Part shown: piece by piece, positions 9,239 to 50,754 of the stretch
How positions within the stretch are numbered: position 1 is the first letter of the stretch
Layout: every line of letters begins with the position of its first letter
DNA from: Pseudomonadota bacterium
Lineage (GTDB): Bacteria; Pseudomonadota; Alphaproteobacteria; Rhodobacterales; Rhodobacteraceae
Assembly: GCA_039821125.1 (NCBI GenBank)
Contig: JBCBOR010000018.1
Location: 1,160-65,159 of the forward strand
DNA: 64,000 bases
Reading direction: 5' to 3'
Program-made: the position numbers and the translations under genes
The notes under the pieces: generated by a model
Databases searched by the model: none
What the model saw: only the letters and a program-made list of their open reading frames with translations
Told to the model about the DNA's origin: nothing

Positions 9239-10021
9239 TCAGCCTACGAAGGCTTTCTCGACCGCGTAGTCACCGGGGGCAGAGTTCGATCCTTCGCTGA
9301 ACCCGCGCGCGTCCAGAAGGGCCTTCATGTCCATGTTGAGACCGATTGAACCACAGATCATCAGACGATCGGTCTCCGGCGACAGCGGCCGGGTGTCGAA
9401 GTGTGCTGTCACACGATCTGCTTCAAACCACTCGGTAATCCTGCCGGTGTGCGGGCTGTCGTCACGTGTGGTTGTGGGCAGATACCGTAACCGCGCTGCG
9501 TGCTCGCCGACCAGCGGATCATCCGGAAGCGCCGCGACAAGCTGCGCGCCATAGGTCAACTCTTCCCGTTTTCTGGACGTGTGACTGAGATAGATTTCAT
9601 CATAGCGCTCGAACGTCTCCGGATCGCGGATGAGCGACGCGAAGGGCGCGATCCCCGTACCTGTCGCGACAAGAAACAGCCGTTTGCCCGGTCGAAGCGC
9701 ATCGTGCACCAGAGTGCCGACAGGTTTCGGCCGCAGGATCACCTGATCGCCGGGCTGTATGTGCTGAAGCCGCGAAGTGAGCGGGCCGTCAGGGACTTTG
9801 ATCGAATAGAACTCGAGTTCGTCATCCCAGGACGGTGAGGCGATCGAGTAGGCCCGCAGCAATGGCCTCCCGTTCTCGCCCATCAAGCCGATCATCACGA
9901 ACTCGCCCGAGCGGAACCTCAGCGACCTCGGCCGCGTCAGCCGGAACGAAAACAGCCGATCGGTATAGTGCGTGACCGAGGAGACTGTTTGTGTGTCGGG
10001 CAGGGTGACGGGCGCGTTCAT
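9239..10021 (-). CDS. fpr: Ferredoxin-NADP+ reductase (bacterial Fpr type)
   Basis: HYTDRLFSFRLTRP..RFRSGEFVMIGL (FAD domain) and LVATGTGIAPFASL (NAD(P) domain). Start set at ATG 10021 (MNAPV), which forms an ATGA overlap with the DUF934 stop. Confidence 0.9.
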   Translation of the reverse strand: MNAPVTLPDTQTVSSVTHYTDRLFSFRLTRPRSLRFRSGEFVMIGLMGENGRPLLRAYSIASPSWDDELEFYSIKVPDGPLTSRLQHIQPGDQVILRPKPVGTLVHDALRPGKRLFLVATGTGIAPFASLIRDPETFERYDEIYLSHTSRKREELTYGAQLVAALPDDPLVGEHAARLRYLPTTTRDDSPHTGRITEWFEADRVTAHFDTRPLSPETDRLMICGSIGLNMDMKALLDARGFSEGSNSAPGDYAVEKAFVG

Positions 10022-10434
10022 GGCCGCACCTCGCCACCGAAGACGCGCGACTGGTAGCCGGCGGCCATCGGAACCGACACCCACTGATGCTCGGGGTTGC
10101 GGGCGGCCTGCTCATCAGTGATCTCGATGTCGGTGAAGCCCGACCGCAGGGCGGCACGGAACTGATCGACCAACACGTGGCCGCGCGCCCGGATGTGCCC
10201 GGTGAAGCCCAGCCCGCGCAACTGCGCCGCTTGCGAGAACCCGCGCCCATCGGCGCTGGACCCGAACGGCACCACGATCAGCTTCAGTGTGTCGAAATGC
10301 GGCAAAGCAGCTTCGGGCGCGGCATCGACCGGCAGCAGGACTCCAGCGCCGCCCTCGTACTCGTCGATGGTCGGCAGGGCTATGTCGGCCCATGCATCCT
10401 TGGCGAAGCCTGTCGGTGTAATGACCTGGCTCAT
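10018..10434 (-). CDS. DUF934-family protein associated with sulfite reductase
   Basis: ~138 aa starting MSQVITPTGF, with FSSADGRGFSQA..LR..GFTG.IRA.G motifs typical of DUF934 next to cysI/cysH. ATGA overlaps at both ends. Confidence 0.75.
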   Translation of the reverse strand: MSQVITPTGFAKDAWADIALPTIDEYEGGAGVLLPVDAAPEAALPHFDTLKLIVVPFGSSADGRGFSQAAQLRGLGFTGHIRARGHVLVDQFRAALRSGFTDIEITDEQAARNPEHQWVSVPMAAGYQSRVFGGEVRP

Positions 10435-11144
10435 CCGGCGATCCTTTCGATTGTTCCGTCTTCTCGGATGTGAATGCCGCACTCGTCGCGTGCCTCGCCG
10501 CGCCAGCGCCCGGCGCGCGCGTCCTCTCCGGTAGCAACCCGCGTCGTGCAGGGCGCGCACCCGATCGAGGGATAGCCCTGTGCGACCAGTGGGTGCCGCG
10601 GCAGATCGTGGGCGTCGAAATAGGCGATGGTGTCGGCGCTGCTCCACCCGGCGAGCGGGCTGATCTTCAGTCGTTCGGCATCATCGGTCTCGAACGCCTG
10701 GATACGGGCGCGGGCACGGGTCTGATAGCGTTTGCGTCCGGTCAGGACTGCATCGAACCCGGCCAGTGCTTTTTCCAGCGGCGCAACCTTGCGCAGCGCA
10801 CAGCACGCCTCGGTGTCGCGTTGGTGCAGTGTCCGGTCGGGGTCAGCGGCCTCGTCCGGACGCAGGATCCGCACATCCCGAAGGCCCAGATGCGCGCTTA
10901 GGTCCCGCTGATACTCCAGCGTCTCCCGAAACAAGAGCGCCGTGTCCAGCATCAGTACAGGCACCGAAGGGTCGGTCACCGACAGCATGTGCAGCAGCAC
11001 CGCCGCATCCGCGCCGAAAGATGACGTCATCGCAATCCGCCCCTCGTAACGATCCAGGGCGACGCCCAGGATCGCTTCAGCCGGAGCTGACCCGAACCGG
11101 GCCTCCAGCCGCCGGGCCGTGATCGACTCAGGCTGCGGCGACAT
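10431..11144 (-). CDS. cysH: Phosphoadenylyl-/adenylyl-sulfate reductase (thioredoxin-dependent; Fe-S type with CC...CxxC)
   Basis: SSFGADAAVLLHM, CC pair (EACCALRKV), CAPCT and C-terminal ECGIH. The start is ATG 11144 or 11156, and either overlaps the cysI 3' end. Confidence 0.9.
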   Translation of the reverse strand: MSPQPESITARRLEARFGSAPAEAILGVALDRYEGRIAMTSSFGADAAVLLHMLSVTDPSVPVLMLDTALLFRETLEYQRDLSAHLGLRDVRILRPDEAADPDRTLHQRDTEACCALRKVAPLEKALAGFDAVLTGRKRYQTRARARIQAFETDDAERLKISPLAGWSSADTIAYFDAHDLPRHPLVAQGYPSIGCAPCTTRVATGEDARAGRWRGEARDECGIHIREDGTIERIAG

Positions 11145-12780
11145 CGAGAGCTCCATAAAGCGCGTCCTTGAACGGTGCAGCACCCAGACGGCGATAGGTC
11201 TCGAGGAATGTCTCATCCCCGTGCATCCGCGTTGCCAGATAGGTATCGATGATCCGCTCGACGGCCGGCACGATCTCGTCATAGGCAAAGCCCGGCCCGG
11301 TACGCTCGCCCAGGGTCGCGGCCTCGGTCCCGTCGCCGCCCAGCGTGATCTGGTAGCTCTCTACCCCCGCCTTATCGAGGCCAAGGATACCGATATGCCC
11401 CACGTGGTGGTGACCACAGGCATTGATGCAGCCGCTGATCTTGATCTTCAGCGGGCCGATGTCGTGCTGGGCGTCGATGTCGGCGAACGTCTCCGAGATC
11501 TGCTGGGCAATCGGGATCGACCGGGCCGTGGCCAGTGCGCAGTAATCCATGCCGGGGCAGGCGATGATGTCCGAGATCAGCCCGGCATTCGCCGTCGCCA
11601 GCCCCGCATCGCGCAGCGCGGCATAGACCGCGGGCAGATCGGCCTGCGGCACATGCGGCAGGATCACGTTCTGCTCGTGGCTGATGCGCAGTTCGTCATA
11701 GCTGTAGCGCTCGGCCAGATCCGCCAGCACCCGCATCTGATCTGACGAGGCATCGCCGGGCGTCGCCCCGATGGCCTTAAGCGAAACCGTCACGATCACG
11801 TGGCCGTCGCGCTTGTGCGGCGCGGTGTTGGTGTCGGCGAACGCGCGCAATGCGGCAGGCAGGACCCGGTCCTTTAAGCGTGTTTTCCTGTACGTGGGTT
11901 CCGCGAAGCTTGCGGTGATCCGCGCGACCACATCCTTGGCCACATCCGGCAGCCGGCGCTGTTGCAGGGCGAAGTTCTCCTCGATCCGCGCCTTCAGCTC
12001 CTCAAGCCCGGTCTCGTGCACCAGGATCTTGATCCGCGCCTTGTATTTGTTGTCGCGCCGGCCCGAGAGATTGTACGTGCGCATGATCGCCTCGAGATAC
12101 GCCAGCAGATCGCGCTTCGGCAGGAACTCACGCACCACCTTGCCGATCATCGGGGTCCGGCCGAGCCCGCCACCGATCACGACCTGATAGCCGACCTCGC
12201 CGTCCTGCTCGCGCACGCGCAGGCCGATGTCGTGGAAACGGATGACCGCGCGGTCTTCCTCAGACGCCGTCACCGCCACCTTGAACTTGCGCGGCAGGTA
12301 GGCGAACTCCGGGTGATCGGTCGACCACTGCCGGATTAGCTCGGCGGTGATGCGCGGGTCCTCGACCTCGCCCGCCGCTGCGCCTGCAAAGTGATCCGCC
12401 GTCACGTTGCGGATGCAGTTGCCCGAGGTCTGGATCGCGTGCATCTCGACATCCGCCAGCGCGTCCAGCATGTCCGGCACATCAGCGAGCTTGGGCCAGT
12501 TGAACTGGATGTTCTGCCGCGTTGTGAAGTGGCCATAGCCTTTGTCCCACCGGTCGGCGATGTAGGCGAGCTGGCGCATCTGTGCCGAGTTCAGCGTGCC
12601 ATAGGGGATGGCGACCCGCAGCATGTAGGCGTGCAGTTGCAAGTACAGCCCGTTCATCAGGCGGATCGGCTTGAACTCGTCCTCGGTCAGCGAGCCATCG
12701 AGACGGCGTGCCACCTGGCCGCGGAACTCTTCAACGCGCGATCGGACAAAGGCTTCGTCGAAATCGCTGTATTTATACAT
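11128..12780 (-). CDS. cysI: Assimilatory sulfite reductase hemoprotein (siroheme/4Fe-4S)
   Basis: 550 aa. Cluster-binding cysteines ACPGMDYCALA and SGCINACGHHHVG. Duplicated nitrite/sulfite reductase ferredoxin-like halves. Confidence 0.92.
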   Translation of the reverse strand: MYKYSDFDEAFVRSRVEEFRGQVARRLDGSLTEDEFKPIRLMNGLYLQLHAYMLRVAIPYGTLNSAQMRQLAYIADRWDKGYGHFTTRQNIQFNWPKLADVPDMLDALADVEMHAIQTSGNCIRNVTADHFAGAAAGEVEDPRITAELIRQWSTDHPEFAYLPRKFKVAVTASEEDRAVIRFHDIGLRVREQDGEVGYQVVIGGGLGRTPMIGKVVREFLPKRDLLAYLEAIMRTYNLSGRRDNKYKARIKILVHETGLEELKARIEENFALQQRRLPDVAKDVVARITASFAEPTYRKTRLKDRVLPAALRAFADTNTAPHKRDGHVIVTVSLKAIGATPGDASSDQMRVLADLAERYSYDELRISHEQNVILPHVPQADLPAVYAALRDAGLATANAGLISDIIACPGMDYCALATARSIPIAQQISETFADIDAQHDIGPLKIKISGCINACGHHHVGHIGILGLDKAGVESYQITLGGDGTEAATLGERTGPGFAYDEIVPAVERIIDTYLATRMHGDETFLETYRRLGAAPFKDALYGALDVAAA

Positions 12781-13072
12781 TTTCTGCCTGTTTTCCGTGG
12801 AAGTAGTTGGAAGGGCCGCGCGTGCGGAACGTCTCGCGGAAATGGGTCGGGGCGGGGACGCCGGTGCTCAGATCCACGTCGATCAGGTGGATGTTCACTG
12901 TCTCGTGCGGATACTGCCTGGCCTCGTGCAGCAGAGCGTCCGCCTCCTCCGCCGTTTCGGCCACGGCGGCCTCGGCCAACTCGCGCGTCCAGCCCGGCCG
13001 GGTGAAGTAGATCACGTCGCCTTCTAGCAGGTGGTTGGTCGTGGCGACCTTCGGGGTAAAGGGTTTGGGCAT
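12773..13072 (-). CDS. DUF2849-family small protein (sulfite-reductase operon associated)
   Basis: ~100 aa sitting between cysG and cysI, as is typical in alphaproteobacteria. ATG 13072 shares its A with the cysG TGA. Its 3' end overlaps the cysI start by 8 nt. Confidence 0.7.
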   Translation of the reverse strand: MPKPFTPKVATTNHLLEGDVIYFTRPGWTRELAEAAVAETAEEADALLHEARQYPHETVNIHLIDVDLSTGVPAPTHFRETFRTRGPSNYFHGKQAENV

Positions 13073-14472
13073 CACGTCGCCTTTCTGAGAACAGGTTGGG
13101 CAGCAATGGTGGTGGGTGCGGCGAGCGCAGCTTCGTGAGGGCTGAGGCCGAGCATCAGGACAGCGGGACCGTCCATGACCTCGAGATGGACAGTCAGGGT
13201 CAGCAGGGTCGAGGCAATGATCCGTTGATCCGGGCGCGAGACATTCTCGACAATCGTCACAGGCGTCTCGGCATCGGCCCCATGCATCAGCAGGCGCCCG
13301 GTCAGGAACTTGGACGCGGCCTTGCCCATGTAGATCGCCGCGACCGCGCCGGGGCGGGCCAGCGCGCGCCAGTCGTGATCGGCAAAGCCCTCGGCCTCGT
13401 GTCCTGTGATGATCCTGAGATCCGAGTTACGCCCACGCCGGGTCATGCTGACGCCCAGCGCTGCCGCCGCCGCTGCCGCGGATGTGATCCCCGGCGTCAC
13501 GGTGAAGTCGATCCCGGCCGCGCCGAGCGCCTCGGTCTCCTCATCCAGCCGCCCGAACACACCGCTGTCGCCGGATTTCAGGCGCACGACCTGATGGGTG
13601 CGGCCATGCTCGACCAGCAGGGCGTTGATATCGGCCTGCTTCCACGAGGGGCCGAAGGGGATCTTGCCAACCTCGATGATCTTGGCCTCGCGCCGGGCGA
13701 GTTCCAGGATTGGCGCGGGAACGAGACGGTCATGGATCACCACGTCGGCCTCGTGTAGCAGCTTGCGGGCCTTCATGGTCAGAAGATCCGGGTCGCCCGG
13801 ACCCGCGCCGACGAAGTGGACATGACCCTCGCGGTCGGCTTCGGTCTGCGTCTCGTTGAAAAGCGCGCGCAGGTCACGGCGCGTTGCCTTCTCGCCTCCA
13901 GCCAGCACGCGGGGCCCGCGCTCGAAGTAGAACCGCGACCAGAAGTCCCGGCGCACCCGGCCCTTGGGAAGGTGGGACGCGATGGGCCGGAAGGCTTGCC
14001 CGATCCTGGTGAGCACGCCAAGAGTCTGAGGCAGCATCGCCTCGATATCCGACTTGATCTTGCGGGCCAGCACGGGCGCCGCGCCCTCGGTCCCGATCGC
14101 GACCGTCACCGGATCGCGGTCCACGATAGCTGGCGTGATGAAATCGCTGGCGTCGAGATTGTCGACCACCAGCGTCTTGACGCTTGCGGCCTGCCCGAGT
14201 GCTGCAATGGCGAGGTCGATCTCAGGTGCATCGTTGGCCGCGTAGAGCAAGATGGCTCCGGGCAGATCCTCGGCGGTAACGGCGCGGTCATGGTGGATCA
14301 GACGACCCTCACGCGCCCATTTCTCGACCTGCGGCTCTGCATCTGTCCCAAATACATGGATCTCCGCCTCGGTCTTCAGCAACAGGCGCAGCTTTGCGAC
14401 CGCGCACTCTCTGGCACCGGACACGACGATGCGCCGTCCCTGGGTGTCGAGGTAGATCGGAAAGTGCCGCAT
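13072..14472 (-). CDS. cysG: Siroheme synthase (precorrin-2 dehydrogenase/ferrochelatase domain plus uroporphyrinogen-III C-methyltransferase domain)
   Basis: C-terminal SUMT motif VHFVGAGPGDPDLLT. N-terminal Rossmann-like module. Start set at ATG 14472 (MRHFPIYL), preceded by AGGAGG. Confidence 0.9.
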   Translation of the reverse strand: MRHFPIYLDTQGRRIVVSGARECAVAKLRLLLKTEAEIHVFGTDAEPQVEKWAREGRLIHHDRAVTAEDLPGAILLYAANDAPEIDLAIAALGQAASVKTLVVDNLDASDFITPAIVDRDPVTVAIGTEGAAPVLARKIKSDIEAMLPQTLGVLTRIGQAFRPIASHLPKGRVRRDFWSRFYFERGPRVLAGGEKATRRDLRALFNETQTEADREGHVHFVGAGPGDPDLLTMKARKLLHEADVVIHDRLVPAPILELARREAKIIEVGKIPFGPSWKQADINALLVEHGRTHQVVRLKSGDSGVFGRLDEETEALGAAGIDFTVTPGITSAAAAAAALGVSMTRRGRNSDLRIITGHEAEGFADHDWRALARPGAVAAIYMGKAASKFLTGRLLMHGADAETPVTIVENVSRPDQRIIASTLLTLTVHLEVMDGPAVLMLGLSPHEAALAAPTTIAAQPVLRKAT

Positions 14473-14622
14473 CGGGGCCTCCTGACGCATTGCCGGATGA
14501 ACGAAATCAATCTGTGAGGGAAGAAATTGACCAATGTCCCGAAATCTACAAGCTTGCCTCTGCGACAGCGGAACAGTATTCCAACGTGGCCCCAGCTAGC
14601 GGAAAGACGGCCAGAGCGCCCC

Positions 14623-15123
14623 ATGACCGACCGAACGCCTGACCTTGACCAAGATGACCGCCGCATCCTGCGTGAGGTCCAGACAGACACCACCCGCTCC
14701 TTGCAGCGCATTGCGGACCGAGTCGGTCTGGCCAAGACCACTGTCTGGAACAGGGTTCAGCGGATGACACAGAACGGCACGATCCTGCGTCAGGCAGCAA
14801 TTCTGGATGCTCGCAAGGTTGGGTTGAACGAGACGTTCTTTGTCTCGATCCGAACCTCACAGCATGACGGCGCGTGGCTCGACAAGTTCAAGGCGGTGAT
14901 CGAGGACATGCCCCAGATCACCGAGGCGCACCGGTTGGCAGGCACGCTCGACTACCTGCTCAAGGTGCAGGTGTCCTCGACCGATGCGTTCGATGACTTC
15001 TACAAGGATCTGGTGTCGCGTATCCCGATCTATGACGTCTCGTCGAGCCTGTCGATGGAGCAGATGAAGCGCTCGCTCGAACTGCCGTTTCTCGATGCAA
15101 ACGAGGATCGCCGGAAGGACTAG
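14623..15123 (+). CDS. Lrp/AsnC-family transcriptional regulator
   Basis: LDQDDRRILREVQTDTTRSLQRIADRVGLAKTTVWNRVQRM HTH region plus a C-terminal RAM-like domain. Divergent from cysG. Start moved to the internal ATG (MTDRTPDL). Confidence 0.85.
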   Translation: MTDRTPDLDQDDRRILREVQTDTTRSLQRIADRVGLAKTTVWNRVQRMTQNGTILRQAAILDARKVGLNETFFVSIRTSQHDGAWLDKFKAVIEDMPQITEAHRLAGTLDYLLKVQVSSTDAFDDFYKDLVSRIPIYDVSSSLSMEQMKRSLELPFLDANEDRRKD

Positions 15124-34402: not shown

Positions 34403-34411
34403 GGCGTCGGT

Positions 34412-39861: not shown

Positions 39862-39946
39862 TTCGCCGCGACCACGCGCTTTGCAAAGCGCGTGGTGAAA
39901 GGCGCGTCGACGCGCCTTCTGCCGCGCTTGGGGCTGGCGTTGCAGG

Positions 39947-40867: not shown

Positions 40868-42019
40868 TTAGGCGACGACGGCCTGACGTGTCTCGACCGG
40901 CTCTTGCAGGTGCAGCCGCGCACCGTCCGCTCCGAACGCCATGGCCCGCCCGGGCAGCGGGATCGCATGCACGGTGTCACCGGTCCTGAGCGTTGACGCG
41001 GCGAGCGGGTCGGCGCGCACGACCATACGCTGGGATCCGATATCGACATGCAGGAAGAGATCCGAGCCGAGGTTCTCCCGGTGGACGACATTGCCCGAGA
41101 TGGTGCCCTCGCCGAACTCGGGCACCAGTTGCAGGTGCTCTGGCCGCAAGCCCACCGTGATCCGCCCTGCATGGGCGGGATCGACCCGGCGAGTCAGCGT
41201 CGCGCCGCTGACATGGATCGTGCCGTCGCTCGCGGCCTCGGCCTCCAGCGCGTTGATCTTGGGCGAGCCGATGAACTGTGCCACCTGCAGATCCTTGGGA
41301 TCGTCGTAGACTTTGGCCGGGGGCGCCAGTTGCAGGATCTCGCCGCCCATCATGACCGCCATGCGGTCGGACATGGTCAGCGCCTCGGCCTGATCGTGGG
41401 TCACGTAGATGAAGGTCACACCGAGGTCGCGGTGCAACTCGGCCAATTCGGCCCGCATGTGAACCCGCAGGGCGGCATCCAGGTTGGACAGCGGCTCGTC
41501 CATCAGGAAGGCGACGGGTTTGCGGACCATGGCGCGGCCAAGAGCGGCCCGCTGTCGCTGGCCACCTGAAAGCTGCCCCGGCTTGCGGTCGAGCAGGGGG
41601 CCGATCTGCAGCACATCCGCGGTTTCCTTGATGTGCCGGGCAATCTCTGCGTGCTTGGCGCCGGCGATCATCCGGCCAATCAGCGGAAACCGCTCGAAGA
41701 ACCCAAGCTCGCGCAGGCGCAGGGGCACCGCCATGTTCTGGGCCACGGTCAGGTGCGGATAGAGCGCGTAGGACTGGAACACCATCGCCAGATTGCGCTC
41801 GGCGGCGCGAACGCCGTTGACCGGTCGGTCCTCGATGTGCACGTCTCCGCCGCCCTGGTGTTCAAGCCCTGCAATGATGCGCAGCAGGGTGGACTTGCCG
41901 CAGCCGGACGGCCCGACGAGCGTCAGGAACTCGCCATCGCGAATATCGAGGTCTATGCCCTTCAGAACGGAGACGTCGCCGAAGGACTTGGTGATTTTGT
42001 TCAGGCGTATTCCGGCCAT
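40868..42019 (-). CDS. CUT1 ABC transporter ATP-binding protein (UgpC/MalK-like)
   Basis: Walker [25 protein letters not shown] and [11 protein letters not shown]. First gene of the operon. Confidence 0.92.
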   Translation of the reverse strand: MAGIRLNKITKSFGDVSVLKGIDLDIRDGEFLTLVGPSGCGKSTLLRIIAGLEHQGGGDVHIEDRPVNGVRAAERNLAMVFQSYALYPHLTVAQNMAVPLRLRELGFFERFPLIGRMIAGAKHAEIARHIKETADVLQIGPLLDRKPGQLSGGQRQRAALGRAMVRKPVAFLMDEPLSNLDAALRVHMRAELAELHRDLGVTFIYVTHDQAEALTMSDRMAVMMGGEILQLAPPAKVYDDPKDLQVAQFIGSPKINALEAEAASDGTIHVSGATLTRRVDPAHAGRITVGLRPEHLQLVPEFGEGTISGNVVHRENLGSDLFLHVDIGSQRMVVRADPLAASTLRTGDTVHAIPLPGRAMAFGADGARLHLQEPVETRQAVVA

Positions 42020-42067
42020 GCCTGTTGCACTCGCAAGAATCTGATCTCATGTGCGTAGCAAGTTTCC

Positions 42068-42085
42068 GCGACCGTTCAGTGACAT
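42068..42085 (-). promoter_or_regulatory. Candidate Pho box upstream of the UgpC-like operon
   Basis: The minus strand reads ATGTCAC-TGAA-CGGTCGC (7+4+7), compared with the CTGTCAT-N4-CTGTCAT consensus. It lies 49-66 nt upstream of ATG 42019. Only a partial match. Confidence 0.2.
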
Positions 42086-42225
42086 GTGGGCGGACGCCGC
42101 CGGTGGATCGAGCGCGGTCGGTCGAGCAGCCTGCCGGGGACGTGGCTGTTCGCCCTCGGTTTCCCGGTCTCAAAGGTCAAAAAAAAATCAATCCGGGGAG
42201 CCTTGCGTCGACAAAGACGGGAAGA

Positions 42226-43140
42226 TCAATCCGCGTGCGCCAGCGCGATCGCGATTTCGGATGCCAAGGCTGCGTTGTTCTTGATCAAGGCGACGTTTGC
42301 CTCAAGCGAAAGGCCATCCGTCAGATCAAGAACCTGATCGAGCAGGTACGGTGTTACGGCCTTGCCGGTAATCCCGCGATCATCTGCTGTCCTCAGTGCT
42401 GTCTCGATATGCGGTCCGAGGACGTCCGAGGAGATTTCATCCTGCGCCGGTATCGGGTTCCCGACGAGTTGGCCGCCAGCAAGCGTCATGGCCGCGCGCA
42501 ACCGGTGCGACCGAGCGATCTTGTCGGCGCTGTCGACGCTGATCGGAACAGGGATGCCGCTGCTTCTTGACCAGAAGGCCGGGAACATCGTCGTCCTGTA
42601 GCCGATCACCGGCACGCCGAGCGTCTCCAGCACTTCCAGCGTTTTGGGGATGTCCAGGATTGCCTTCGCTCCGGAGGCAACGACGGTGACGGGCGTCCGG
42701 GCGAGTTCCTGCAGGTCGGCGGATATGTCGAAGGATGTCTCTGCACCGCGGTGCACGCCGCCGATGCCGCCCGTTGCAAAGACCTCGATCCCAGCCAGAT
42801 GCGCGGCGATCATCGTGGCGGCAACCGTGGTTGATCCCGTTGCTCCGTCCACAAGCGCAGCCGCCATGTCGGCGCGCGAGAGTTTGCGCACATTGGAGGC
42901 CGTGGAGAGCATCTGAAGGTCTTTGTGATCGAGACCGACCCGAAGGGTGCCGTCGATCACCGCAATCGTGGCCGGGGTTGCGCCCCGGTCCCGCACGACG
43001 GCCTCGACGGCCAGAGCGGTCTCGAGATTCTGCGGGCTCGGCAATCCATGTGTGATGATCGTCGACTCGAGCGCCACGACCGGATCGTTGCGCCGGAGGG
43101 CGTCTGCGACAGTCTGGGACAGGATAAGGGGTGGTTTCAT
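42226..43140 (-). CDS. psuG: Pseudouridine-5'-phosphate glycosidase (YeiN/PsuG)
   Basis: Near-collinear with the E. coli YeiN sequence as I remember it: PVVALESTIITHG, FATGGIGGVHRGAETSFDISADLQELA and GNPIP. Start at ATG 43140, in an ATGA overlap with psuK. Confidence 0.92.
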   Translation of the reverse strand: MKPPLILSQTVADALRRNDPVVALESTIITHGLPSPQNLETALAVEAVVRDRGATPATIAVIDGTLRVGLDHKDLQMLSTASNVRKLSRADMAAALVDGATGSTTVAATMIAAHLAGIEVFATGGIGGVHRGAETSFDISADLQELARTPVTVVASGAKAILDIPKTLEVLETLGVPVIGYRTTMFPAFWSRSSGIPVPISVDSADKIARSHRLRAAMTLAGGQLVGNPIPAQDEISSDVLGPHIETALRTADDRGITGKAVTPYLLDQVLDLTDGLSLEANVALIKNNAALASEIAIALAHAD

Positions 43141-44021
43141 GCGGCCTCGCCGTTCTGCATATGCGCCGCTGCAGCGCTCAACGCAAATCTCAAGCTGTCG
43201 CCCGGCGCGTCTTGGCGGTCCTGTGATGCCAGGAAGGCTGACATGAGCGCATCGCCCGCACCGGTGATCGAAGCCGCCCCTGGCGTTTGCGGCGGGTTGG
43301 CCGTGACGACCTCGTCCGGTGTTGCCAACGCTGCCGGCCGCGGTCCATCGGTCACCAGGGCTGTCGCTGTGCACCTCGCCTGCAATGCTCGCGCGGCGTC
43401 GATACTGGTGTTGAAGGATCGCTCCAAAAGAACGCAGGCCTCCGCAAGGTTCACAACCAGCGTGGGAGCAACGTCACCGGACAGCAAAACACCGAGCCGG
43501 TGTGCCTTGGCCGGGCTGACCGGGTTCGCAATGATCCTCGCGCCCGCCTTTGCGCCATGGTGCGCGATCTTCTGCAAGGCTGTGGCTGCAAGGTTGGCCT
43601 CCAGCACAACAGTCGACACCGACGCAAGCGCCGATATCGCCTGCTCGACCACCGTATCGGCGCTGTTGTCGAGAAGCGCTGTGTCGGCGATCGCGGCAAA
43701 CAGGGCCTTTCGGTCATCTTCGATCGCGATGTAGTGACCGGTCGCAGCCCCCTCGATCCTGGCCATATAGGTGGACGCCACACCTGAATTTTCGAGGTGA
43801 TTGATCAGCGCGCTCCCCTCCGCATCATCGCCGACGGCTGAACAGAGACTGACGCGAATGCCGTGACGCGCCAGCCCGAGTGCCAGGTTCAGCGCCACAC
43901 CGCCGGGGCGACGCTCGACCCGGCCCGTCACATCATCACCCATGGCGAGCTTTGTGCTGGTCCTGCCGATGATGTCCCAATGCGCGGCGCCCACGCAGAG
44001 CATGAAGGATGGGTTCTGCAT
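43137..44021 (-). CDS. psuK: PfkB-family carbohydrate kinase (pseudouridine kinase-like)
   Basis: GGVALNLALGLARHG and C-terminal TGAGDALMSAF (PfkB anion-hole motif). ATG 44021 shares one base with the P450 stop (TGATG). Confidence 0.8.
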   Translation of the reverse strand: MQNPSFMLCVGAAHWDIIGRTSTKLAMGDDVTGRVERRPGGVALNLALGLARHGIRVSLCSAVGDDAEGSALINHLENSGVASTYMARIEGAATGHYIAIEDDRKALFAAIADTALLDNSADTVVEQAISALASVSTVVLEANLAATALQKIAHHGAKAGARIIANPVSPAKAHRLGVLLSGDVAPTLVVNLAEACVLLERSFNTSIDAARALQARCTATALVTDGPRPAALATPDEVVTANPPQTPGAASITGAGDALMSAFLASQDRQDAPGDSLRFALSAAAAHMQNGEAA

Positions 44022-45235
44022 CAATGGGCCGCCTGTGCGCGTGGTCTTTCGGCAAGGTGCAACGCGGTCAGACCGCGAAAGTGATAGGCATTGCGGTATG
44101 GACCTGGCTGAACGCGAAACTCTGACCCCAGCACATCAAACAAGGTGCTGAGCGCGATCTGCATCTCGATCCTTGCGAGCGGTGCGCCGACGCAAAAGTG
44201 CACGCCGCCGCCCAGCGATACGTGTCGGGGACGAACCCGCGCTGGATCGAAAATCTCAGGCAAGCGGTTCGCGCGTTCATCGTGATTGGCCGAGCCAATG
44301 AGCAGGCCCACCTGCGCGCCTTTCTTCAGGGCAACACCGTTCCAGTCGAGATCGTTCAGCACATAGCGCGTGAACATGTGAAGGGGCGGGTCGAACCGCA
44401 GCAGTTCTTCGACGACATTCCCCGAGATCTCATCACGCAGAGGCACGTCATGGCCGAGCAAGGTCCGGATCGAATTGCCGAGTGCATGCACAGTCGCTTC
44501 ATGCCCCGCGTTCAACAACAGGATCGCGGTGGCCACGACCTCATCGACGGACAGCCGGTCGCCAGCTTCTTCCGTCGCGATGAGAACGCTCAGAAGATCC
44601 TCGGCAGGATCTTGCCTGCGGCGCCGGATCAGATCGCGTATATAGGTCGAGAACGCCTGCGTCGCGGCTGAGGCACTGTCCTCGATCTCGCGGTCCCGCC
44701 GGGCCTGATACAGTGCGACCATTCGATGGGACCAGTCCAGAAGTTGAGGGGCCATGTCGAGCGGGACACCAAGCAGTTCTGCGATGATCGTGATGGGAAT
44801 GGGCGTGCAGTAGCGCTCGATTAGATCATCGCCCTCTTTCAGCCCTTGCGCCAGCTCAAACGCCAGCGTTTGAATGCGCGGGCGCAGGCCCTCGATGCTG
44901 GCCGATACGAAGGCCCGATTGATCAGGGATCGAAGACGGGTGTGTTTGGGCGGCTCTTTTTCGAGCAGCGAGTGCGCCTCGAACGCATAAAACGCCTCGA
45001 GATGCTCGGGTATCGGATCCCATCCCAGTTCCTCGCGCGTCGCGAGGTGCAGAATCTCACGACCGAACCGGCGATCGCGAAAAATCGCGTTCACGTCCTC
45101 GAACCGGGGGAAAACCCACATGTCGTACTCGTCCCACCAGAACACCTCGTGTTGCCGGAAGGATCGATAGACCGGGTAGGGGTTCTGCACGAACGTCGGA
45201 CAGGTCGGTGACTGGCAGATGGTGGGACGGGACAT
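44021..45235 (-). CDS. Cytochrome P450
   Basis: Heme-binding loop SLGGGVHFCVGAPLAR, ExxR (EELLRF) and I-helix LLNAGHEAT. Confidence 0.92.
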   Translation of the reverse strand: MSRPTICQSPTCPTFVQNPYPVYRSFRQHEVFWWDEYDMWVFPRFEDVNAIFRDRRFGREILHLATREELGWDPIPEHLEAFYAFEAHSLLEKEPPKHTRLRSLINRAFVSASIEGLRPRIQTLAFELAQGLKEGDDLIERYCTPIPITIIAELLGVPLDMAPQLLDWSHRMVALYQARRDREIEDSASAATQAFSTYIRDLIRRRRQDPAEDLLSVLIATEEAGDRLSVDEVVATAILLLNAGHEATVHALGNSIRTLLGHDVPLRDEISGNVVEELLRFDPPLHMFTRYVLNDLDWNGVALKKGAQVGLLIGSANHDERANRLPEIFDPARVRPRHVSLGGGVHFCVGAPLARIEMQIALSTLFDVLGSEFRVQPGPYRNAYHFRGLTALHLAERPRAQAAH

Positions 45236-45320
45236 CCCACAAGTGTCGCCTGACCGTTCAGCCGGCGCAACGGATCATTGAAGATCGGTGCGCATCACCG
45301 CTTCCGGACCCCTGCGGCGC

Positions 45321-46508
45321 TTAAGACAAGGCGACCGGCACGGACAGTGGACCCCGAAAGGCCCAGCCGCCGAACGCGACGTCATCGACCAGCCGCAGGT
45401 TCGGGAAGCGCTGAAACAGCTTTGGAAGTGCGACATCCGCGATGAGCGTCTTCGATGCAGCGGCACCGGCGCAGAAGTGCGGCCCGGCGCCGAACGGGAT
45501 CGCCTGACGATTGTCGCGCGAGATGTCAAACAGCTCCGGATCGTCAAAGACTCGCGGGTCGCGGTTGGCGGCGCCGAACATCAGGAACACGCGCTGGCCT
45601 GGTTCAAAGGCGTACTCCAGCACGGTCTCGGCACGCGCGATCTCGCGTGGCGACATTCCGATCGGGGAGACCCAGCGGGCATATTCTTCGAACGCGTCGG
45701 CATAGCTCGCCTGTCCCGCTGCGAGCTTTTCGAATTGGCCCGGGTGCGCAAGCAGCGCCCACGCCGTTCCCGCAATCGCGTCACGTGGTTCGTTCTGTCC
45801 CCCCGAGATCGTCAGTTTCACATTCGCCCGGGTCGAGGCCATTTTCAGACCCGCCGCGAGTTGCACCGATAACAATGACGTGTCCGGCTCTGCCTTGAGC
45901 GCCGGCACCATGCGATCAATGTGCTCGTCGATATAGGCGGTCGCGGCATGGCACCGTTCCTCGACCTCAGGATCGCCAATGTAGTTCGCACAGCCGTCCA
46001 GCATGTGCTGGCTGACGCGATCCATCTCATGGGTCGGCATCTCGGTGAGGCCCGTGATCACCTTCAGCGCCTCGCCACAGACCGGCATGGCGTAGTCGCG
46101 CACCAGATCGCAGGTGGCGGCGGTTTCAAGCCCATCCAGTATCCGATCCGCGGCGTCATGAAACTTCTGTGCCCAAACCTGCCGAACCGTTCTGGGGCTC
46201 AGCGCGGGAAAGGCGATCTTGCGCTCGACCAGATGATCGTCACCATCCTTGCGCATCATGTTCTCGCCCATCAGAATCGTCATCAGACCGTCCGGCTGCC
46301 GGGACGAGAACACGTCGATGCGTTTCTCCTGCTCGAAGATATCATTGCGCCGCGTGATCAGGACGGCGTTCAATTCCGGCACCTCAACCGCAGGCGCCAT
46401 GGCCTGAATGCGTTTCAGATCCGGATACGGATCCTGCCAGAACGCTTTGGGATCAATGGAATATGTTGGAGGCAACGTCCTTCCTCCCCCCGCGACGAGA
46501 TCATGCAT
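45321..46508 (-). CDS. Cytochrome P450 (second, divergent copy)
   Basis: Heme-binding loop PFGAGPHFCAGAAASK. 395 aa. Confidence 0.9.
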   Translation of the reverse strand: MHDLVAGGGRTLPPTYSIDPKAFWQDPYPDLKRIQAMAPAVEVPELNAVLITRRNDIFEQEKRIDVFSSRQPDGLMTILMGENMMRKDGDDHLVERKIAFPALSPRTVRQVWAQKFHDAADRILDGLETAATCDLVRDYAMPVCGEALKVITGLTEMPTHEMDRVSQHMLDGCANYIGDPEVEERCHAATAYIDEHIDRMVPALKAEPDTSLLSVQLAAGLKMASTRANVKLTISGGQNEPRDAIAGTAWALLAHPGQFEKLAAGQASYADAFEEYARWVSPIGMSPREIARAETVLEYAFEPGQRVFLMFGAANRDPRVFDDPELFDISRDNRQAIPFGAGPHFCAGAAASKTLIADVALPKLFQRFPNLRLVDDVAFGGWAFRGPLSVPVALS

Positions 46509-46513
46509 TCACG

Positions 46514-47179
46514 CTAGGACGTGCCGTCCTGAACTTTTTCGAGGTATTCTTCCTCGGAGAGTGTCCCACCTTCCTGCTCGGCCCGCCCCTGATCGTCCGG
46601 GTGCAGGAACGGTTGCAGCGGTTCGATCCGTTTCCAGGCCGGGAAGGGCTGGTTGCCCTCCGCATCCGGGACGTAGGGAGACGTCTCGACGCGCGTGTGT
46701 TTGTGAATATAGCGCGCGCAGTTCTGGAACACGACCGTCACCGCGACATCCACGACCATGTTGCAGCCGGGGAAGTCAGCCATCAGGGCAGGGTCCTTGC
46801 ACAGTTTGGCTTTGCCTTGCACCCGGATGCGCCACGGGGTGACCATGTCCATGAACAGCATCCCGACATTGGCGGCGTCGCTGATGTTCCCCATCGACAA
46901 CCACATGCCATTGCCGTCGTAGTTCGGAAAGATCAGGCGGTTTGGCCCAAGCACTTTGACGAACCCGACATCGCCGCCCTTGTACGAGACTGTCGGCATC
47001 CCCTCGCCATCCACCGTGGACAGGAAAAAGTAATCCCGGCTGGTGATGTAATCCGTGTGGATCTCCTCAAGCTCGTCCCGGACAATCGCGTGCACGACCA
47101 CCTCTGAAAGCTTGTCATGTTGCGCGTCGCTCTGCAGAGCCCGCTGCGCCTTGGTGTAGAACTCGTCCGGTGTCGGCAT
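46514..47179 (-). CDS. Pyridoxamine-5'-phosphate-oxidase-like FMN-binding split-barrel protein
   Basis: FFLSTVDGEGMPTVSYKGG..GFVKV and RIRVQGKA, typical of the PNPOx-like family. Its stop lies 5 nt upstream of the P450 start. Confidence 0.7.
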   Translation of the reverse strand: MPTPDEFYTKAQRALQSDAQHDKLSEVVVHAIVRDELEEIHTDYITSRDYFFLSTVDGEGMPTVSYKGGDVGFVKVLGPNRLIFPNYDGNGMWLSMGNISDAANVGMLFMDMVTPWRIRVQGKAKLCKDPALMADFPGCNMVVDVAVTVVFQNCARYIHKHTRVETSPYVPDAEGNQPFPAWKRIEPLQPFLHPDDQGRAEQEGGTLSEEEYLEKVQDGTS

Positions 47180-47206
47180 CTTGCCCTCTGTCAGGTTGGG
47201 TCCCGA

Positions 47207-48229
47207 TCAACTCGCATCGGCCTCTTCTGCGGCTGGTGCCGGTGCGCTGAGATTTGGAGCGTCCTCGAACTCCATCACCCTCGGCTGCGGTTTCTTGTTG
47301 ATCAGCAGACGGGTCACGTCGGGCCGCGAATAGTGCCCAGACGGGTCCGCCGCCGCCTTTGCCACGGAAATCATCGGCAGATTGATCTCGGCAATGATCA
47401 GACCCTCCTGGTCCTCTGGCAGGTGTTCGGCCATCGGCTGGCCGTCGGGTCCGAAGATCATCGAAAAGCCGCCGCCGGGCTTGCCGGTTGCCGGGTTCAG
47501 CAGATGCGCTTTGTCCTCGGTGTCGCAGAGCTTGTCGAACATGTCCTGCCCGGTGATGGCAGTCGATGCCAGCACATAGCACTGCCCCTCGAGCGCGTAG
47601 ACCTGGCTGGCCGCGAGGTTTGCTTCGGGTCCCAAAGCGTAGGCCATGCCGCGATAGAGCGTGAACGAGGGCCACGACGCGCAATGGACCTGCTCGCCCA
47701 TCGCGTACATCGCGTATTTCGAAAGAGGCTGAAGATGCTCCCAGCAGCACAGCGCGCCCACACGGCCGCATTCGGTCTCAACCACGTTGAAATGCGAACC
47801 ATCGCCCTCGCCAAACAGCGTTCGCTCCACATGGGTGGGCTTCAGCTTCCGGCGATGGAACCCGACGCCGCCATCGGAGCCGATCAGGACCTGCGCCATG
47901 TAGATCGAGCCGCCGTCGATCTCCGAGTAGCCCATCATGACGTTGATGTCGTTGGCCTTGGCCGCGGCGCGTAGCCGGTCCATCTCCGGTCCGTCCCGGC
48001 GCATGCAGCTTGCGTGATAGCCCGGGACGAATTGCAACCCCCAGGCGGGCGCAGCGAGCCACAAGAACCACGGATAGCCGGGGATCCAAGTCTCCGGGAA
48101 CGCAATCAGTTTCACATCCTGTTTTGCAGCGTCCTCGATCAGTGAAATCGCTTTGTCGACGCAACCCTGAAGATCCATGAACACGGGCGCGGCCTGCACA
48201 GCCGCTGCCTTGAAAGTCTGTAACGTCAT
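47207..48229 (-). CDS. Nitrilase (carbon-nitrogen hydrolase branch 1)
   Basis: Catalytic triad contexts [12 protein letters not shown] (Glu), HRRKLKPT (Lys) and GALCCWEH (Cys). Start at ATG 48229, preceded by GGAGAA. Confidence 0.9.
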
Positions 48230-48547
48230 TGGCTTTCTCCCTGCGAGAGCAGATGCGTTGAACACCGCCGAGCGTGTGGGCCCAGCGTGACAGTGTCAAC
48301 TCAACACAGGGGATCCGGGGCATTTGACGGGGATCGGTGTGCGAAAGTGTCCGCCGAGTTTGGATACGATTGTCTCCGGCGCACAGTCATGGAACCGCTC
48401 ACACAGGCCAATGAACCATCGCGTGCGAACCGCGTGCCGATATTGCCTTTAATCCGCCGCATCGAGACGCTTTGACGTAGCGCGAGCGGACGGGTGTGTG
48501 GCAGGATCGGCAGCCAGCAAGACCGTCGCAGAACAGGGGTTGAGCAG

Positions 48548-50158: not shown

Positions 50159-50754
50159 TGCACCTGCCTGACGGTCAGCGCCAGATCGTGGCCGGGCTCG
50201 GCGCATCTGTGGCGTTTCTGTCGATATTCTTCGGGCTTGGGCTGGTCTGGTGGGCCGCGCTGATCGCAGGGTTCGCGGTTTATCTCGCGATCCTGCTGAT
50301 CGTCGAGCGCAAGACGCCTGAGACCGAGGAGATGGTTGCCGATGGGATCTCGCGGGCCGAATTGACGGGGGCGATCAACGCGATCACGGCCGCATCTTCA
50401 AAGATGCGCCAGTTGGCGACCGCGGCACGGGGCGACGATCGCGGCGAATTCCAGAAGATGGCGAAGCTGTTCGAGGCGATCCGCGCCCATCACATCAAGG
50501 ACCCGCGTGACTATCATCACACCCGCACCTTCATTCGCCACGATCTGCCTCGCATCGTCGACACGGCCGAGCGCTATGTCGATCTCGACAAAAGGGCGTC
50601 GGGCGAGAACCGTGACCGTGTGGATGCCCTGGGAGAACAGATACGCAGTTTCACCCCCGTGTTGGAGAAGATCGACCAGGCCTGCCTCGAGAACGATTTC
50701 ATGGCCCTGGAAGTTCAGGTCGAGGTGCTGGGCGAGCAACTGGGCAAACGGTGA
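50158..50754 (+). CDS. Two-TM helical protein, XpaC-like (5-bromo-4-chloroindolyl phosphate hydrolysis protein family architecture)
   Basis: TGATG overlap with the upstream gene. Two N-terminal TM helices followed by a ~140-aa helical domain. The family label rests on remembered architecture and is not verified. Confidence 0.65.
   Translation: MHLPDGQRQIVAGLGASVAFLSIFFGLGLVWWAALIAGFAVYLAILLIVERKTPETEEMVADGISRAELTGAINAITAASSKMRQLATAARGDDRGEFQKMAKLFEAIRAHHIKDPRDYHHTRTFIRHDLPRIVDTAERYVDLDKRASGENRDRVDALGEQIRSFTPVLEKIDQACLENDFMALEVQVEVLGEQLGKR

What the first reader, a model, noticed from the sequence alone, without database searches (positions are those of the whole stretch)
42226..48229. Six-gene operon coupling nitrilase, an FMN split-barrel protein and two P450s directly to psuK-psuG (pseudouridine C-glycosidase)
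The minus-strand genes run in the order nitrilase, PNPOx-like FMN protein, P450, P450, PfkB kinase, PsuG. The junctions are a 27-nt gap, a 5-nt gap, an 85-nt gap, a one-base TGATG overlap and an ATGA overlap.

PsuG here is a close YeiN-type enzyme (ESTIITHG, GGIGGVHRGAETSFDISADLQELA). As I know them, canonical psuKG pairs sit with nucleoside transporters, not with oxygenases.

YeiN-type enzymes are reversible, and homologues act as C-glycoside synthases in natural-product pathways (AlnA in alnumycin, SdmA in showdomycin). The operon could therefore make or degrade a modified C-nucleoside-like or nitrile-bearing metabolite rather than simply salvage pseudouridine. No ferredoxin or reductase partner for the P450s is encoded here. 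The FMN protein is the only redox candidate.
Basis: partly seen in the sequence, partly recalled or inferred. Interest (0 to 1): 0.66.

Follow-up and report, generated by a model that had tools for sequence, protein, structure and literature searches.

The report
P450 gene fused to pseudouridine-breakdown operon
The six genes are really two unrelated gene modules that happen to sit side by side, but one of the two cytochrome P450 genes travels with the pseudouridine kinase and glycosidase genes in a group of uncultured marine bacteria, an arrangement I found no report of that hints at an oxidative step in breaking down pseudouridine-type nucleosides.

Summary
Six co-directional minus-strand genes lie at 42226-48229 with exactly the stated junctions and motifs.

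The run is a juxtaposition of two separately conserved units, and the seam is the 85-nt gap.

- **Unit 1, nitrilase plus PNPOx-like FMN protein.** This pair recurs in roseobacter-type genomes with an AraC regulator and a Liv-type ABC transporter, without any P450. P450-A is attached to it only here and in one metagenome contig.
- **Unit 2, P450-B, psuK, psuG.** This triad recurs in six other loci, each in a different neighbourhood. Order and orientation are the same and the junctions are overlapping or short. None of these loci carries the nitrilase, the FMN protein or P450-A.

The three triad genes show congruent divergence. PsuG and PsuK keep the catalytic and pseudouridine-binding residues, and a kinase rather than a phosphatase is present. 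That points to catabolism, not C-nucleoside biosynthesis.

P450-B belongs to a widespread alphaproteobacterial orphan P450 family that is normally unlinked to psuKG. I infer that it performs an oxidative step, most plausibly dealkylation of a modified pseudouridine, that feeds PsuK and PsuG. Its substrate is untested. I found no paper linking a P450 to psuKG.

The parts
47207..48229 (-). Nitrilase, first gene of unit 1. The Glu, Lys and Cys catalytic motifs FPETW, RRKLKPT and CCWEH are readable in the translation.
   Evidence: PF00795, 184 bits. TIGR04048 scores 233 bits, below its 502 cut-off. It is 82% identical to the nitrilase of L092. Nitrilase-PNPOx pairs recur in L174 and L175.
46514..47179 (-). 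PNPOx-like FMN split-barrel protein. It is the conserved partner of the nitrilase, not a P450 reductase.
   Evidence: PF01243, 42 bits. Homologues 80-86% identical occur in Yoonia, Epibacterium, Cognatishimia and related MAGs. In the two checked (L174, L175) the gene lies directly after a nitrilase with no P450 nearby.
45321..46508 (-). P450-A, an orphan marine P450. It is attached to the nitrilase-FMN pair only here and in L092.
   Evidence: PF00067. Best solved structure is 6g71, 261 bits and 38% identity, followed by the aromatic O-demethylase P450 GcoA. 79 of 80 metagenome loci with homologues lack the nitrilase and FMN genes. L092 reads AraC, then NIT-FMN-P450A.
45236..45320 (.). 85-nt intergenic seam between the two independently conserved units. 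It is the widest gap in the run.
   Evidence: Sequence read. No significant RNA structure (z = -0.24). No promoter or terminator consensus. No motif is shared with the regions upstream of the other triads.
44021..45235 (-). P450-B, first gene of the conserved triad. The haem-thiolate motif is LGGGVHFCVGAPLA, the I-helix reads AGHEAT and the ExxR motif is ELLR.
   Evidence: PF00067, 82 bits. Orthologues 61-80% identical sit directly upstream of PfkB-PsuG in L001, L003, L005, L089, L090 and L091. Best solved structure is CYP107P2 (8yhn), 289 bits and 38% identity. The triad P450s form one clade.
43137..44021 (-). PsuK-like PfkB nucleoside kinase. Its start overlaps the P450-B stop codon (TGATG).
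   Evidence: PF00294, 119 bits. Best solved structure is E. coli PsuK (7vkp), 60 bits. The pseudouridine-contacting residues D16, G41, V42, N45, Y97, N143, S167 and D256 of EcPsuK are invariant in the triad kinases (residue roles from PMC9247573).
42226..43140 (-). PsuG, a YeiN-type pseudouridine-5'-phosphate glycosidase. Its start overlaps the psuK stop codon (ATGA).
   Evidence: PF04227, 407 bits. E. coli YeiN (4gij) scores 306 bits against 187 for AlnA. The equivalents of E31, K93, D149 and K166 are conserved in the printed alignment.
42020..42225 (.). 206-nt spacer after psuG. It contains a run of nine T without a hairpin and marks the likely end of the unit.
   Evidence: Sequence read. 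Fold z-score is +0.57. The downstream CUT1-type ABC transporter and metallophosphoesterase (36513-42019) are not conserved next to the other triads.
9239..15123 (.). Cluster of Lrp, CysG, DUF2849, sulfite reductase, PAPS reductase and FNR. In Rhodobacterales the equivalent cluster lies close to the P450-B-family gene, but no P450 is here.
   Evidence: Pfam scans. The window proteins are 47-71% identical to neighbour clusters c3, c8, c1, c13 and c2 of the P450-B-family loci. tblastn finds no further P450-B-like sequence in the window.

Best explanation
The six-gene run is two independently conserved units that have come to lie head to tail.

**Unit 1 (46514-48229, plus P450-A at 45321-46508)** is a nitrile-hydrolysing pair: a nitrilase and a PNPOx-like FMN protein. 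Roseobacter-type genomes carry the same pair under an AraC regulator. Here and in one metagenome contig an orphan P450 has been added to it.

**Unit 2 (42226-45235)** is a three-gene catabolic operon, P450-B then psuK then psuG.
- *Shown by homology:* PsuK phosphorylates pseudouridine and PsuG cleaves the C-C glycosidic bond of pseudouridine 5'-phosphate to give uracil and ribose 5-phosphate.
- *Inferred from linkage:* P450-B is translationally coupled to psuK, co-inherited with psuKG and held under comparable purifying selection, so it belongs to the same pathway.
- *Speculative chemistry:* P450-B oxidatively dealkylates or otherwise unmasks a modified pseudouridine (for example m1-, m3- or 2'-O-methyl-pseudouridine) that PsuK handles poorly. 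This would release pseudouridine, using housekeeping ferredoxin and reductase encoded elsewhere in the genome.

**Sub-confidences**
- Two-module architecture: about 0.85.
- psuKG as pseudouridine catabolism: about 0.85.
- P450-B being in the same pathway: about 0.6.
- The dealkylase chemistry specifically: about 0.25.
For: **The triad is conserved in unrelated neighbourhoods.** P450-B identity to the window (tblastn) comes.

| Locus | P450-B identity to window | P450-psuK junction | psuK-psuG junction |
|---|---|---|---|
| L001 | 66% | 1-nt overlap | 4-nt overlap |
| L003 | 73% | 18-nt gap | 1-nt overlap |
| L005 | 61% | 4-nt overlap | 4-nt overlap |
| L089 | 80% | 1-nt overlap | 4-nt overlap |
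| L090 | 72% | 55-nt gap | 4-nt overlap |
| L091 | 73% | 4-nt overlap | 11-nt gap |

- The flanks are entirely different in every locus.
- At least ten further contigs appear to carry both a clade P450-B and a clade PsuG. This is judged from identical longest-contig lengths, so it is an inference.

**The three genes have evolved as a unit.**
- Pairwise identity matrices of the three genes across the seven triads are congruent (Mantel r = 0.78, p = 0.005).
- P450-B is conserved at 59-79% and PsuG at 67-76%, against 38-54% for PsuK.
- The Cys ligand, the ExxR motif and the I-helix of P450-B are invariant.
- The triad P450s form a single clade.

**A second association exists.** Chthonobacter (L007) and Oharaeibacter (L010) carry a P450 of the same family convergent on psuG-psuK, 8 nt apart by the gene calls in L007. 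They sit in a different part of the tree.

**The P450 appears to have moved to psuKG in this lineage.** The cluster that lies close to this P450 family in Rhodobacterales is present in the window without a P450.

**The kinase and glycosidase look canonical.** The PsuG and PsuK residue checks are. E. coli PsuK retains only about 6.8% activity on N1-methyl-pseudouridine (PMC9247573), which gives a rationale for a dealkylating step upstream.

**Unit 1 is independent.**
- L174 and L175 read AraC, then nitrilase-PNPOx, then a Liv-type ABC transporter, next to homogentisate-pathway genes and with no P450.
- L092 reads AraC, then NIT-FMN-P450A, with no psuKG.
Against: - The co-directional triad stems from a single evolutionary event, since its P450s form one clade. 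Conservation could therefore partly reflect promoter dependence rather than shared function.
- 76 of the other P450-B-family loci from GTDB genomes have no psuKG within 8 kb. In S. meliloti the family member is a lone gene about 600 kb from psuG.
- Only eight mostly conservative positions distinguish the triad clade from the wider family, so there is no clear sign of a new substrate specificity.
- No ferredoxin is encoded in the window.
- No promoter, terminator or shared upstream motif fixes the transcription units.
- No direct evidence bears on the P450 substrate. The dealkylase idea rests on general P450 chemistry and on one kinetic figure for E. coli PsuK.
Confidence: 0.6

Rival explanations
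1. First reader's reading. All six genes form one operon that makes or degrades a nitrile-bearing or modified C-nucleoside-like metabolite. PsuG would act as a C-glycoside synthase and the FMN protein would serve the P450s.
For: The six genes are co-directional with gaps of 85 nt or less. No terminator-like structure or promoter consensus separates them. YeiN-type enzymes are reversible (established knowledge).
Against: - The six-gene arrangement was not found anywhere else. None of six triad loci has the nitrilase, FMN protein or P450-A, and none of three nitrilase-FMN loci or 80 P450-A loci has psuKG.
- The FMN protein pairs with the nitrilase in genomes without a P450.
- PsuG is nearer to YeiN than to AlnA.
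- The partner gene is a kinase that keeps the pseudouridine-binding residues. There is no phosphatase and no scaffold-forming enzyme in the window.
Confidence: 0.06
2. Hitch-hiker reading. P450-B was inserted once upstream of psuKG in an ancestor. It stays there because psuKG now depends on its promoter and on translational coupling. Its substrate has nothing to do with pseudouridine.
For: - The triad P450s form one clade, so this is one event.
- The wider family is normally unlinked to psuKG.
- Few clade-specific substitutions exist.
- The family sits in varied, lineage-specific neighbourhoods.
Against: - A second, separate adjacency to psuGK occurs in Chthonobacter and Oharaeibacter. I estimate the chance expectation for immediate adjacency at roughly 0.04 over about 80 loci.
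- P450-B is as well conserved as PsuG across the triads, and all its catalytic motifs are intact.
- Start and stop codons overlap in four of seven triads.
Confidence: 0.28
3. Downstream-pull reading. P450-B oxidises the product uracil (for example to barbiturate or 5-hydroxyuracil). This would draw the thermodynamically unfavourable PsuG cleavage forward.
For: The PsuG equilibrium favours synthesis (established knowledge of YeiN), so product removal would help. The linkage evidence is the same as for the main explanation.
Against: No barbiturase, ureidomalonase or other oxidative pyrimidine-pathway gene lies beside any triad. Uracil is normally salvaged. I know of no uracil-hydroxylating P450.
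Confidence: 0.06

Closest known systems
E. coli pseudouridine catabolic genes psuK (yeiC) and psuG (yeiN) with the transporter psuT, and the plant PUKI/PUMY pair
   Same: A PfkB kinase and a PF04227 glycosidase are adjacent and overlapping. The PsuG catalytic residues and the PsuK pseudouridine-binding residues are conserved.
   Different: There is no dedicated nucleoside transporter. A cytochrome P450 is translationally coupled upstream. The kinase is distant from YeiC (24% identity, and 70 bits against the 540-bit equivalog cut-off).
Bare psuK-psuG bicistron of Rhodobacterales-type genomes (L172 from Aliiroseovarius sediminis; L173 from a MAG)
   Same: PsuG is 66% identical to the window's. 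Gene order is the same, with the same 4-nt overlap between kinase and glycosidase.
   Different: These loci have no P450 upstream and lie among housekeeping genes (rpsB and tsf).
C-glycoside synthases of natural-product pathways (AlnA with the phosphatase AlnB in alnumycin, SdmA in showdomycin, MinB in minimycin)
   Same: The PF04227 fold is shared. AlnA is detectable at 187 bits.
   Different: The window protein is far closer to YeiN (306 bits). It is partnered by a kinase, not a phosphatase. No PKS, NRPS or other scaffold gene is nearby.
CYP107-type bacterial P450s (CYP107P2, structure 8yhn)
   Same: This is the best structural relative. The I-helix AGHEAT, with Ala at the usual Thr position, is shared with CYP107P2. 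From memory, P450eryF has the same Ala and uses a substrate hydroxyl in oxygen activation. That is a lead, not something tested here.
   Different: Identity is only 38%, below the 40% convention for a CYP family. The CYP107P2 substrate is itself unknown; it binds terpenoids (PMC11214959). The triad clade has Leu in place of the motif Phe seven residues before the Cys ligand.
Roseobacter-type cluster of AraC, nitrilase, PNPOx and a Liv-type ABC transporter (uncharacterised; L174, L175)
   Same: The nitrilase is directly followed by a 221-aa PNPOx-like protein that is 82-86% identical to the window's.
   Different: The window has no AraC regulator or ABC transporter at this unit. P450-A follows instead, as in L092.

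Membership tests
Pseudouridine-5'-phosphate glycosidase (PsuG/YeiN, PF04227) | Full-length match to PF04227 | tested here: met
   407 bits over residues 11-298.
Pseudouridine-5'-phosphate glycosidase (PsuG/YeiN, PF04227) | Catalytic and metal-binding residues of YeiN (E31, K93, D149, K166; roles recalled from the YeiN structural work) | tested here: met
   E25, the K of NVRK, the D of ISAD and the K of SGAK align with them in the 4gij alignment.
Pseudouridine-5'-phosphate glycosidase (PsuG/YeiN, PF04227) | Closer to the hydrolytic YeiN type than to the natural-product C-glycosynthases | tested here: met
   306 bits to E. coli YeiN against 187 bits to AlnA. A continuous identity series runs down to the Rhodobacterales PsuGs at 66%.
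Pseudouridine-5'-phosphate glycosidase (PsuG/YeiN, PF04227) | Enzymatic cleavage of pseudouridine 5'-phosphate | not testable with these tools
   Needs an enzyme assay.
Pseudouridine kinase (PsuK/YeiC) | PfkB fold with the TGAGD catalytic motif | tested here: met
   PF00294, 119 bits. TGAGD is invariant.
Pseudouridine kinase (PsuK/YeiC) | Residues that contact pseudouridine in EcPsuK (PMC9247573) | tested here: met
   D16, G41, V42, N45, Y97, N143, S167 and D256 are invariant in the triad kinases. The changes are N14 to H, S30 to D and M114 to T.
Pseudouridine kinase (PsuK/YeiC) | NCBIfam equivalog PRK09850 above its cut-off | tested here: not met
   70 bits against a cut-off of 540. The ribokinase model scores 80 bits. 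I therefore call it PsuK-like, supported by the residues above and by the overlap with psuG.
Cytochrome P450 (PF00067), for P450-B | Haem-thiolate Cys motif, ExxR motif and I-helix | tested here: met
   LGGGVHFCVGAPLA, ELLR at residue 277 and AGHEAT at residue 243. These are invariant across 20 family members.
CYP107 family | At least 40% identity to a named member | tested here: not met
   38% identity to CYP107P2 over 387 aligned residues. This is borderline.
C-nucleoside biosynthetic gene cluster | A C-glycosynthase together with a phosphatase and a scaffold-forming enzyme (PKS, NRPS or similar) | tested here: not met
   The Pfam matches of the 58 scanned ORFs of the window include no such genes. 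A kinase is present instead.
Six-gene operon as a conserved functional unit | Recurrence of the arrangement in other genomes | tested here: not met
   It was found in none of six triad loci, none of three nitrilase-FMN loci and none of 80 P450-A loci.
Three-gene unit P450-B, psuK, psuG | Recurrence with the same order and orientation in different neighbourhoods | tested here: met
   Found in six of six examined orthologue loci, with congruent divergence of the three genes.
Nitrilase (CN_hydrolase branch 1) | Glu-Lys-Cys triad and a family model match | tested here: met
   PF00795, 184 bits. The motifs FPETW, RRKLKPT and CCWEH are visible in the translation. The Nit6803 equivalog is not met (233 bits against 502).

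The most novel reading that the evidence does not exclude
P450-B, and possibly its whole alphaproteobacterial family, is a nucleoside-directed oxidase. It would remove N- or O-alkyl groups from modified pseudouridines (m1-, m3-, 2'-O-methyl- or acp3-pseudouridine) so that PsuK and PsuG can cleave them. That would be the first catabolic route for alkylated C-nucleosides and the first P450 assigned to turnover of modified RNA nucleosides. It would also bear on the environmental fate of N1-methyl-pseudouridine from mRNA therapeutics.
Probability: 0.2. Interest if true: 0.8.

Novelty: new variant of a known kind. Interest (0 to 1): 0.5.

Why it matters
[quoted passage not shown] The only known catabolic route is PsuK followed by PsuG, and nothing is known about how alkylated pseudouridines are degraded. 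A P450 that is co-inherited and translationally coupled with psuKG in a lineage of uncultured marine bacteria gives a concrete, cheaply testable candidate for a missing oxidative step.

The work also corrects an attractive but unsupported reading, a six-gene nitrile and C-nucleoside pathway. In passing it shows that the nitrilase-PNPOx pair is a conserved but uncharacterised unit of roseobacter-type bacteria.

Tried and rejected
1. **Shared regulatory signal.** I aligned the regions upstream of all seven triads and found no convincing motif. Consensus scans for promoters and terminators, and folding of the two spacers, gave nothing above shuffled controls. Rfam found only two tRNAs in the window.
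2. **Function from the neighbours of the wider P450-B family.** Clustering the neighbours in 81 loci gave only lineage-specific synteny: an Lrp and sulfite-reductase cluster in Rhodobacterales, and MFS or sarcosine-oxidase-like genes in some Hyphomicrobiales. There was no nucleoside theme.
3. **Function from the neighbours of P450-A.** 80 metagenome loci gave varied, housekeeping-like contexts with no dominant partner.
4. **Clade-specific substitutions in P450-B.** Only eight positions differ, mostly conservatively, so this gives no evidence for a new specificity.
5. **Substrate-site differences between P450-linked and unlinked PsuK.** The core residues are identical and the variable ones show no clear pattern.
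6. **Literature.** Searches for any link between P450 and psuKG or pseudouridine, for methyl-pseudouridine demethylation, and for the nitrilase-PNPOx pair found nothing relevant.
7. **Plasmid collection.** It returned only rhizobial replicons in which the P450 and psuG are unlinked.
8. **Not run.** I did not run structure prediction or fold search, because the nearest folds would be generic P450s and the tool gives no pocket-level output.

Full report
**Observation**

They are a nitrilase (47207-48229), a PNPOx-like FMN protein (46514-47179), P450-A (45321-46508), P450-B (44021-45235), a PfkB kinase (43137-44021) and PsuG (42226-43140).

The junctions are a 27-nt gap, a 5-nt gap, an 85-nt gap, TGATG and ATGA, as read from the sequence. 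The quoted PsuG motifs are present. The two P450s are only 27% identical to each other.

I scanned 58 gene-sized ORFs of the 64-kb window against Pfam and found no ferredoxin. An FNR-type reductase lies at 9239-10084, inside a sulfate-assimilation cluster.

**What the kinase and glycosidase are**

- PsuG scores 407 bits on PF04227. It scores 306 bits against E. coli YeiN and 187 bits against the C-glycoside synthase AlnA. The equivalents of YeiN residues E31, K93, D149 and K166 are conserved.
- The best solved relative of the kinase is E. coli PsuK, though only at 60 bits. It fails the NCBIfam YeiC equivalog cut-off.
- Even so, eight of the eleven residues listed in PMC9247573 as contacting pseudouridine in EcPsuK (D16, G41, V42, N45, Y97, N143, S167, D256) are invariant between EcPsuK and the kinases of all triads.
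- A kinase paired with a glycosidase is the catabolic pairing. The natural-product systems pair the PF04227 enzyme with a phosphatase.

**Synteny of P450-B**

Homologues of P450-B fall into a close group (61-82% identity, mostly MAGs labelled only as Pseudomonadota) and a large wider family (57% or less) in Hyphomicrobiales and Rhodobacterales.

I examined six loci from the close group: L001, L003, L005, L089, L090 and L091. All show P450, PfkB and PsuG in the same order and orientation. The junctions run from 4-nt overlaps to a 55-nt gap, and every neighbourhood is different. None contains the nitrilase, the FMN protein or P450-A.

Matching longest-contig lengths in the two homologue tables suggest at least ten further contigs that carry both genes. 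This is an inference.

The pairwise identity matrices of the three genes over the seven triads are congruent (Mantel r = 0.78, p = 0.005). P450-B (59-79%) is about as conserved as PsuG (67-76%), and PsuK is much less so (38-54%). The triad P450s form one clade.

**The wider P450-B family**

- Of 80 GTDB loci, only the triad representative (L009, the same contig as L003) and Oharaeibacter (L010) have psuKG within 8 kb.
- Oharaeibacter and Chthonobacter (L007) have the P450 convergent on psuG-psuK, 8 nt apart by the gene calls in L007. They sit elsewhere in the tree, so this looks like a second association. My rough estimate of the chance expectation for such immediate adjacency is about 0.04 over these loci.
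- In S. meliloti the family member is a lone gene near clpPX-lon, about 600 kb from psuG.
- In Rhodobacterales the family gene lies close to an Lrp, CysG, sulfite-reductase and FNR cluster. The homologous cluster is in the window at 9.2-15.1 kb, at 47-71% identity, but has no P450 beside it. This suggests that in this lineage the gene sits at psuKG instead.
- Relatives with about 66% identical PsuG (L172, L173) have a bare psuK-psuG pair with no P450 and no transporter.

**The other three genes**

- The FMN protein has homologues at 80-86% identity in Yoonia, Epibacterium, Cognatishimia and related MAGs.
- In L174 and L175 the FMN gene directly follows a nitrilase under a divergent AraC regulator. 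A Liv-type ABC transporter follows, homogentisate-pathway genes lie nearby, and there is no P450. Yoonia has two such pairs in tandem.
- P450-A homologues (55-71% identity) are common in marine metagenomes, with 170 confirmed relatives. 79 of the 80 retrieved loci lack the nitrilase and FMN genes and sit in varied contexts.
- Only L092 repeats the arrangement, reading AraC, then NIT-FMN-P450A, followed by a convergent cytochrome c and no psuKG.
- The FMN protein is therefore the nitrilase's partner and not a P450 redox partner. The 85-nt gap is the seam between two units.

**Transcription**

I found no sigma-70-like promoter, no convincing intrinsic terminator, no stable structure in either spacer, no Rfam element and no motif shared among the triad upstream regions. 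Read-through of all six genes in this strain cannot be excluded, but it has no comparative support.

**Mechanism**

- *Shown by homology:* pseudouridine is converted by PsuK to pseudouridine 5'-phosphate, which PsuG cleaves to uracil and ribose 5-phosphate.
- *Inferred from linkage:* P450-B belongs to this pathway.
- *Speculative:* P450-B oxidatively dealkylates modified pseudouridines. PsuK handles these poorly; EcPsuK keeps about 6.8% activity on m1-pseudouridine (PMC9247573).

P450-B has an intact Cys ligand, ExxR motif and I-helix. The I-helix reads AGHEAT, with Ala at the usual Thr position, as in its nearest structural relative CYP107P2 (38% identity). From memory, P450eryF shares this feature and uses a substrate hydroxyl for oxygen activation, which would suit a ribosyl substrate. 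I did not test this.

Only eight mostly conservative positions separate the triad clade from the wider family. One is Phe to Leu seven residues before the Cys ligand.

**Rivals**

- The hitch-hiker reading, in which the P450 is retained only because psuKG depends on its promoter, remains substantial (about 0.28).
- The uracil-oxidation reading is minor (about 0.06).
- The six-gene pathway reading is also minor (about 0.06).

**Novelty**

Searches of the paper library found no report that links a P450 with psuK, psuG or pseudouridine catabolism. I rate the triad a new variant of a known kind and the six-gene operon claim as not supported. Overall interest is moderate (0.5). The linkage is real and testable, but it rests on one main lineage, and the substrate is unknown.

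Noticed in passing
L174:5807-13291 and L175:2263-13286; window 46514-48229: The nitrilase-PNPOx pair is a conserved, apparently uncharacterised unit in roseobacter-type genomes. It comes with a divergent AraC regulator and a Liv-type ABC transporter, and lies next to homogentisate-pathway genes (HgmA, FAA hydrolase, GST). Yoonia sp. SS1-5 has two such pairs in tandem. This suggests arylacetonitrile catabolism.
   Followed up: partly
window 9239-15123: A cluster of Lrp, CysG, DUF2849, sulfite reductase, PAPS reductase and FNR. It is homologous to the cluster that lies close to the P450-B-family gene in 13-18 Rhodobacterales loci. No P450 sits here in the window, which implies that the family member was relocated to psuKG.
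   Followed up: partly
window 44021-45235, residue 341 of P450-B: In the triad clade the motif Phe seven residues before the haem Cys is Leu (LGGGVHFC). It is Phe in 99% of the wider family. Seven other clade-specific substitutions accompany it (C41V, I129A, F132L, A143C, L313I, P370G, P378G). Their meaning is unknown.
   Followed up: partly
window 45321-46508 and L092-L171: The P450-A family is abundant in marine metagenomes (170 confirmed relatives). It has no conserved neighbour. Its I-helix reads GGQNEPRD, without the usual Thr, like its nearest structure 6g71. Its next-nearest structures include the aromatic O-demethylase P450 GcoA.
   Followed up: partly
L090:6050-9895: In one triad locus a LysR regulator and an NMT1-type ABC transporter (SBP, ATPase, permease) lie directly upstream and co-directional with P450-psuK-psuG, 105 nt away. 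This could be an uptake system for the pathway's substrate.
   Followed up: no
window 48494-51879 and 6159-9214: Two clusters containing vWA domains. The first has an SBP_bac_11-VWA fusion (554 aa), a PF10112 protein (the '5-bromo-4-chloroindolyl phosphate hydrolysis' family) and an unannotated 363-aa protein. The second has an unannotated 558-aa protein, a 253-aa VWA protein and an unannotated 200-aa protein.
   Followed up: no
window 33509-42019: A region that looks like phosphorus scavenging lies downstream of psuG. It has a CUT1-type ABC transporter (a UgpC-like ATPase, two permeases and an SBP), a metallophosphoesterase, and phosphonate-type ABC genes (ATPase, Phosphonate-bd SBP, permease). 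It is not conserved next to the other triads.
   Followed up: partly
window 52038-52114 (-) and 52212-52287 (+): Two divergently oriented tRNA genes, tRNA-Pro(CGG) and tRNA-Gln(TTG), lie about 100 nt apart.
   Followed up: yes
window 59814-61109: A 93-aa ORF that matches only the N-terminal module of an oligopeptide permease sits immediately before a complete permease gene that has its own N-terminal module. It may be a partial duplication or a gene remnant.
   Followed up: no
L001 vs L002, downstream of the GST gene (about 13.9 kb onward in L001): Two contigs from the same sample share the triad region but diverge downstream. One carries a recombinase, a reverse transcriptase and restriction-modification genes, so this is a strain-variable island next to the triad.
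   Followed up: no
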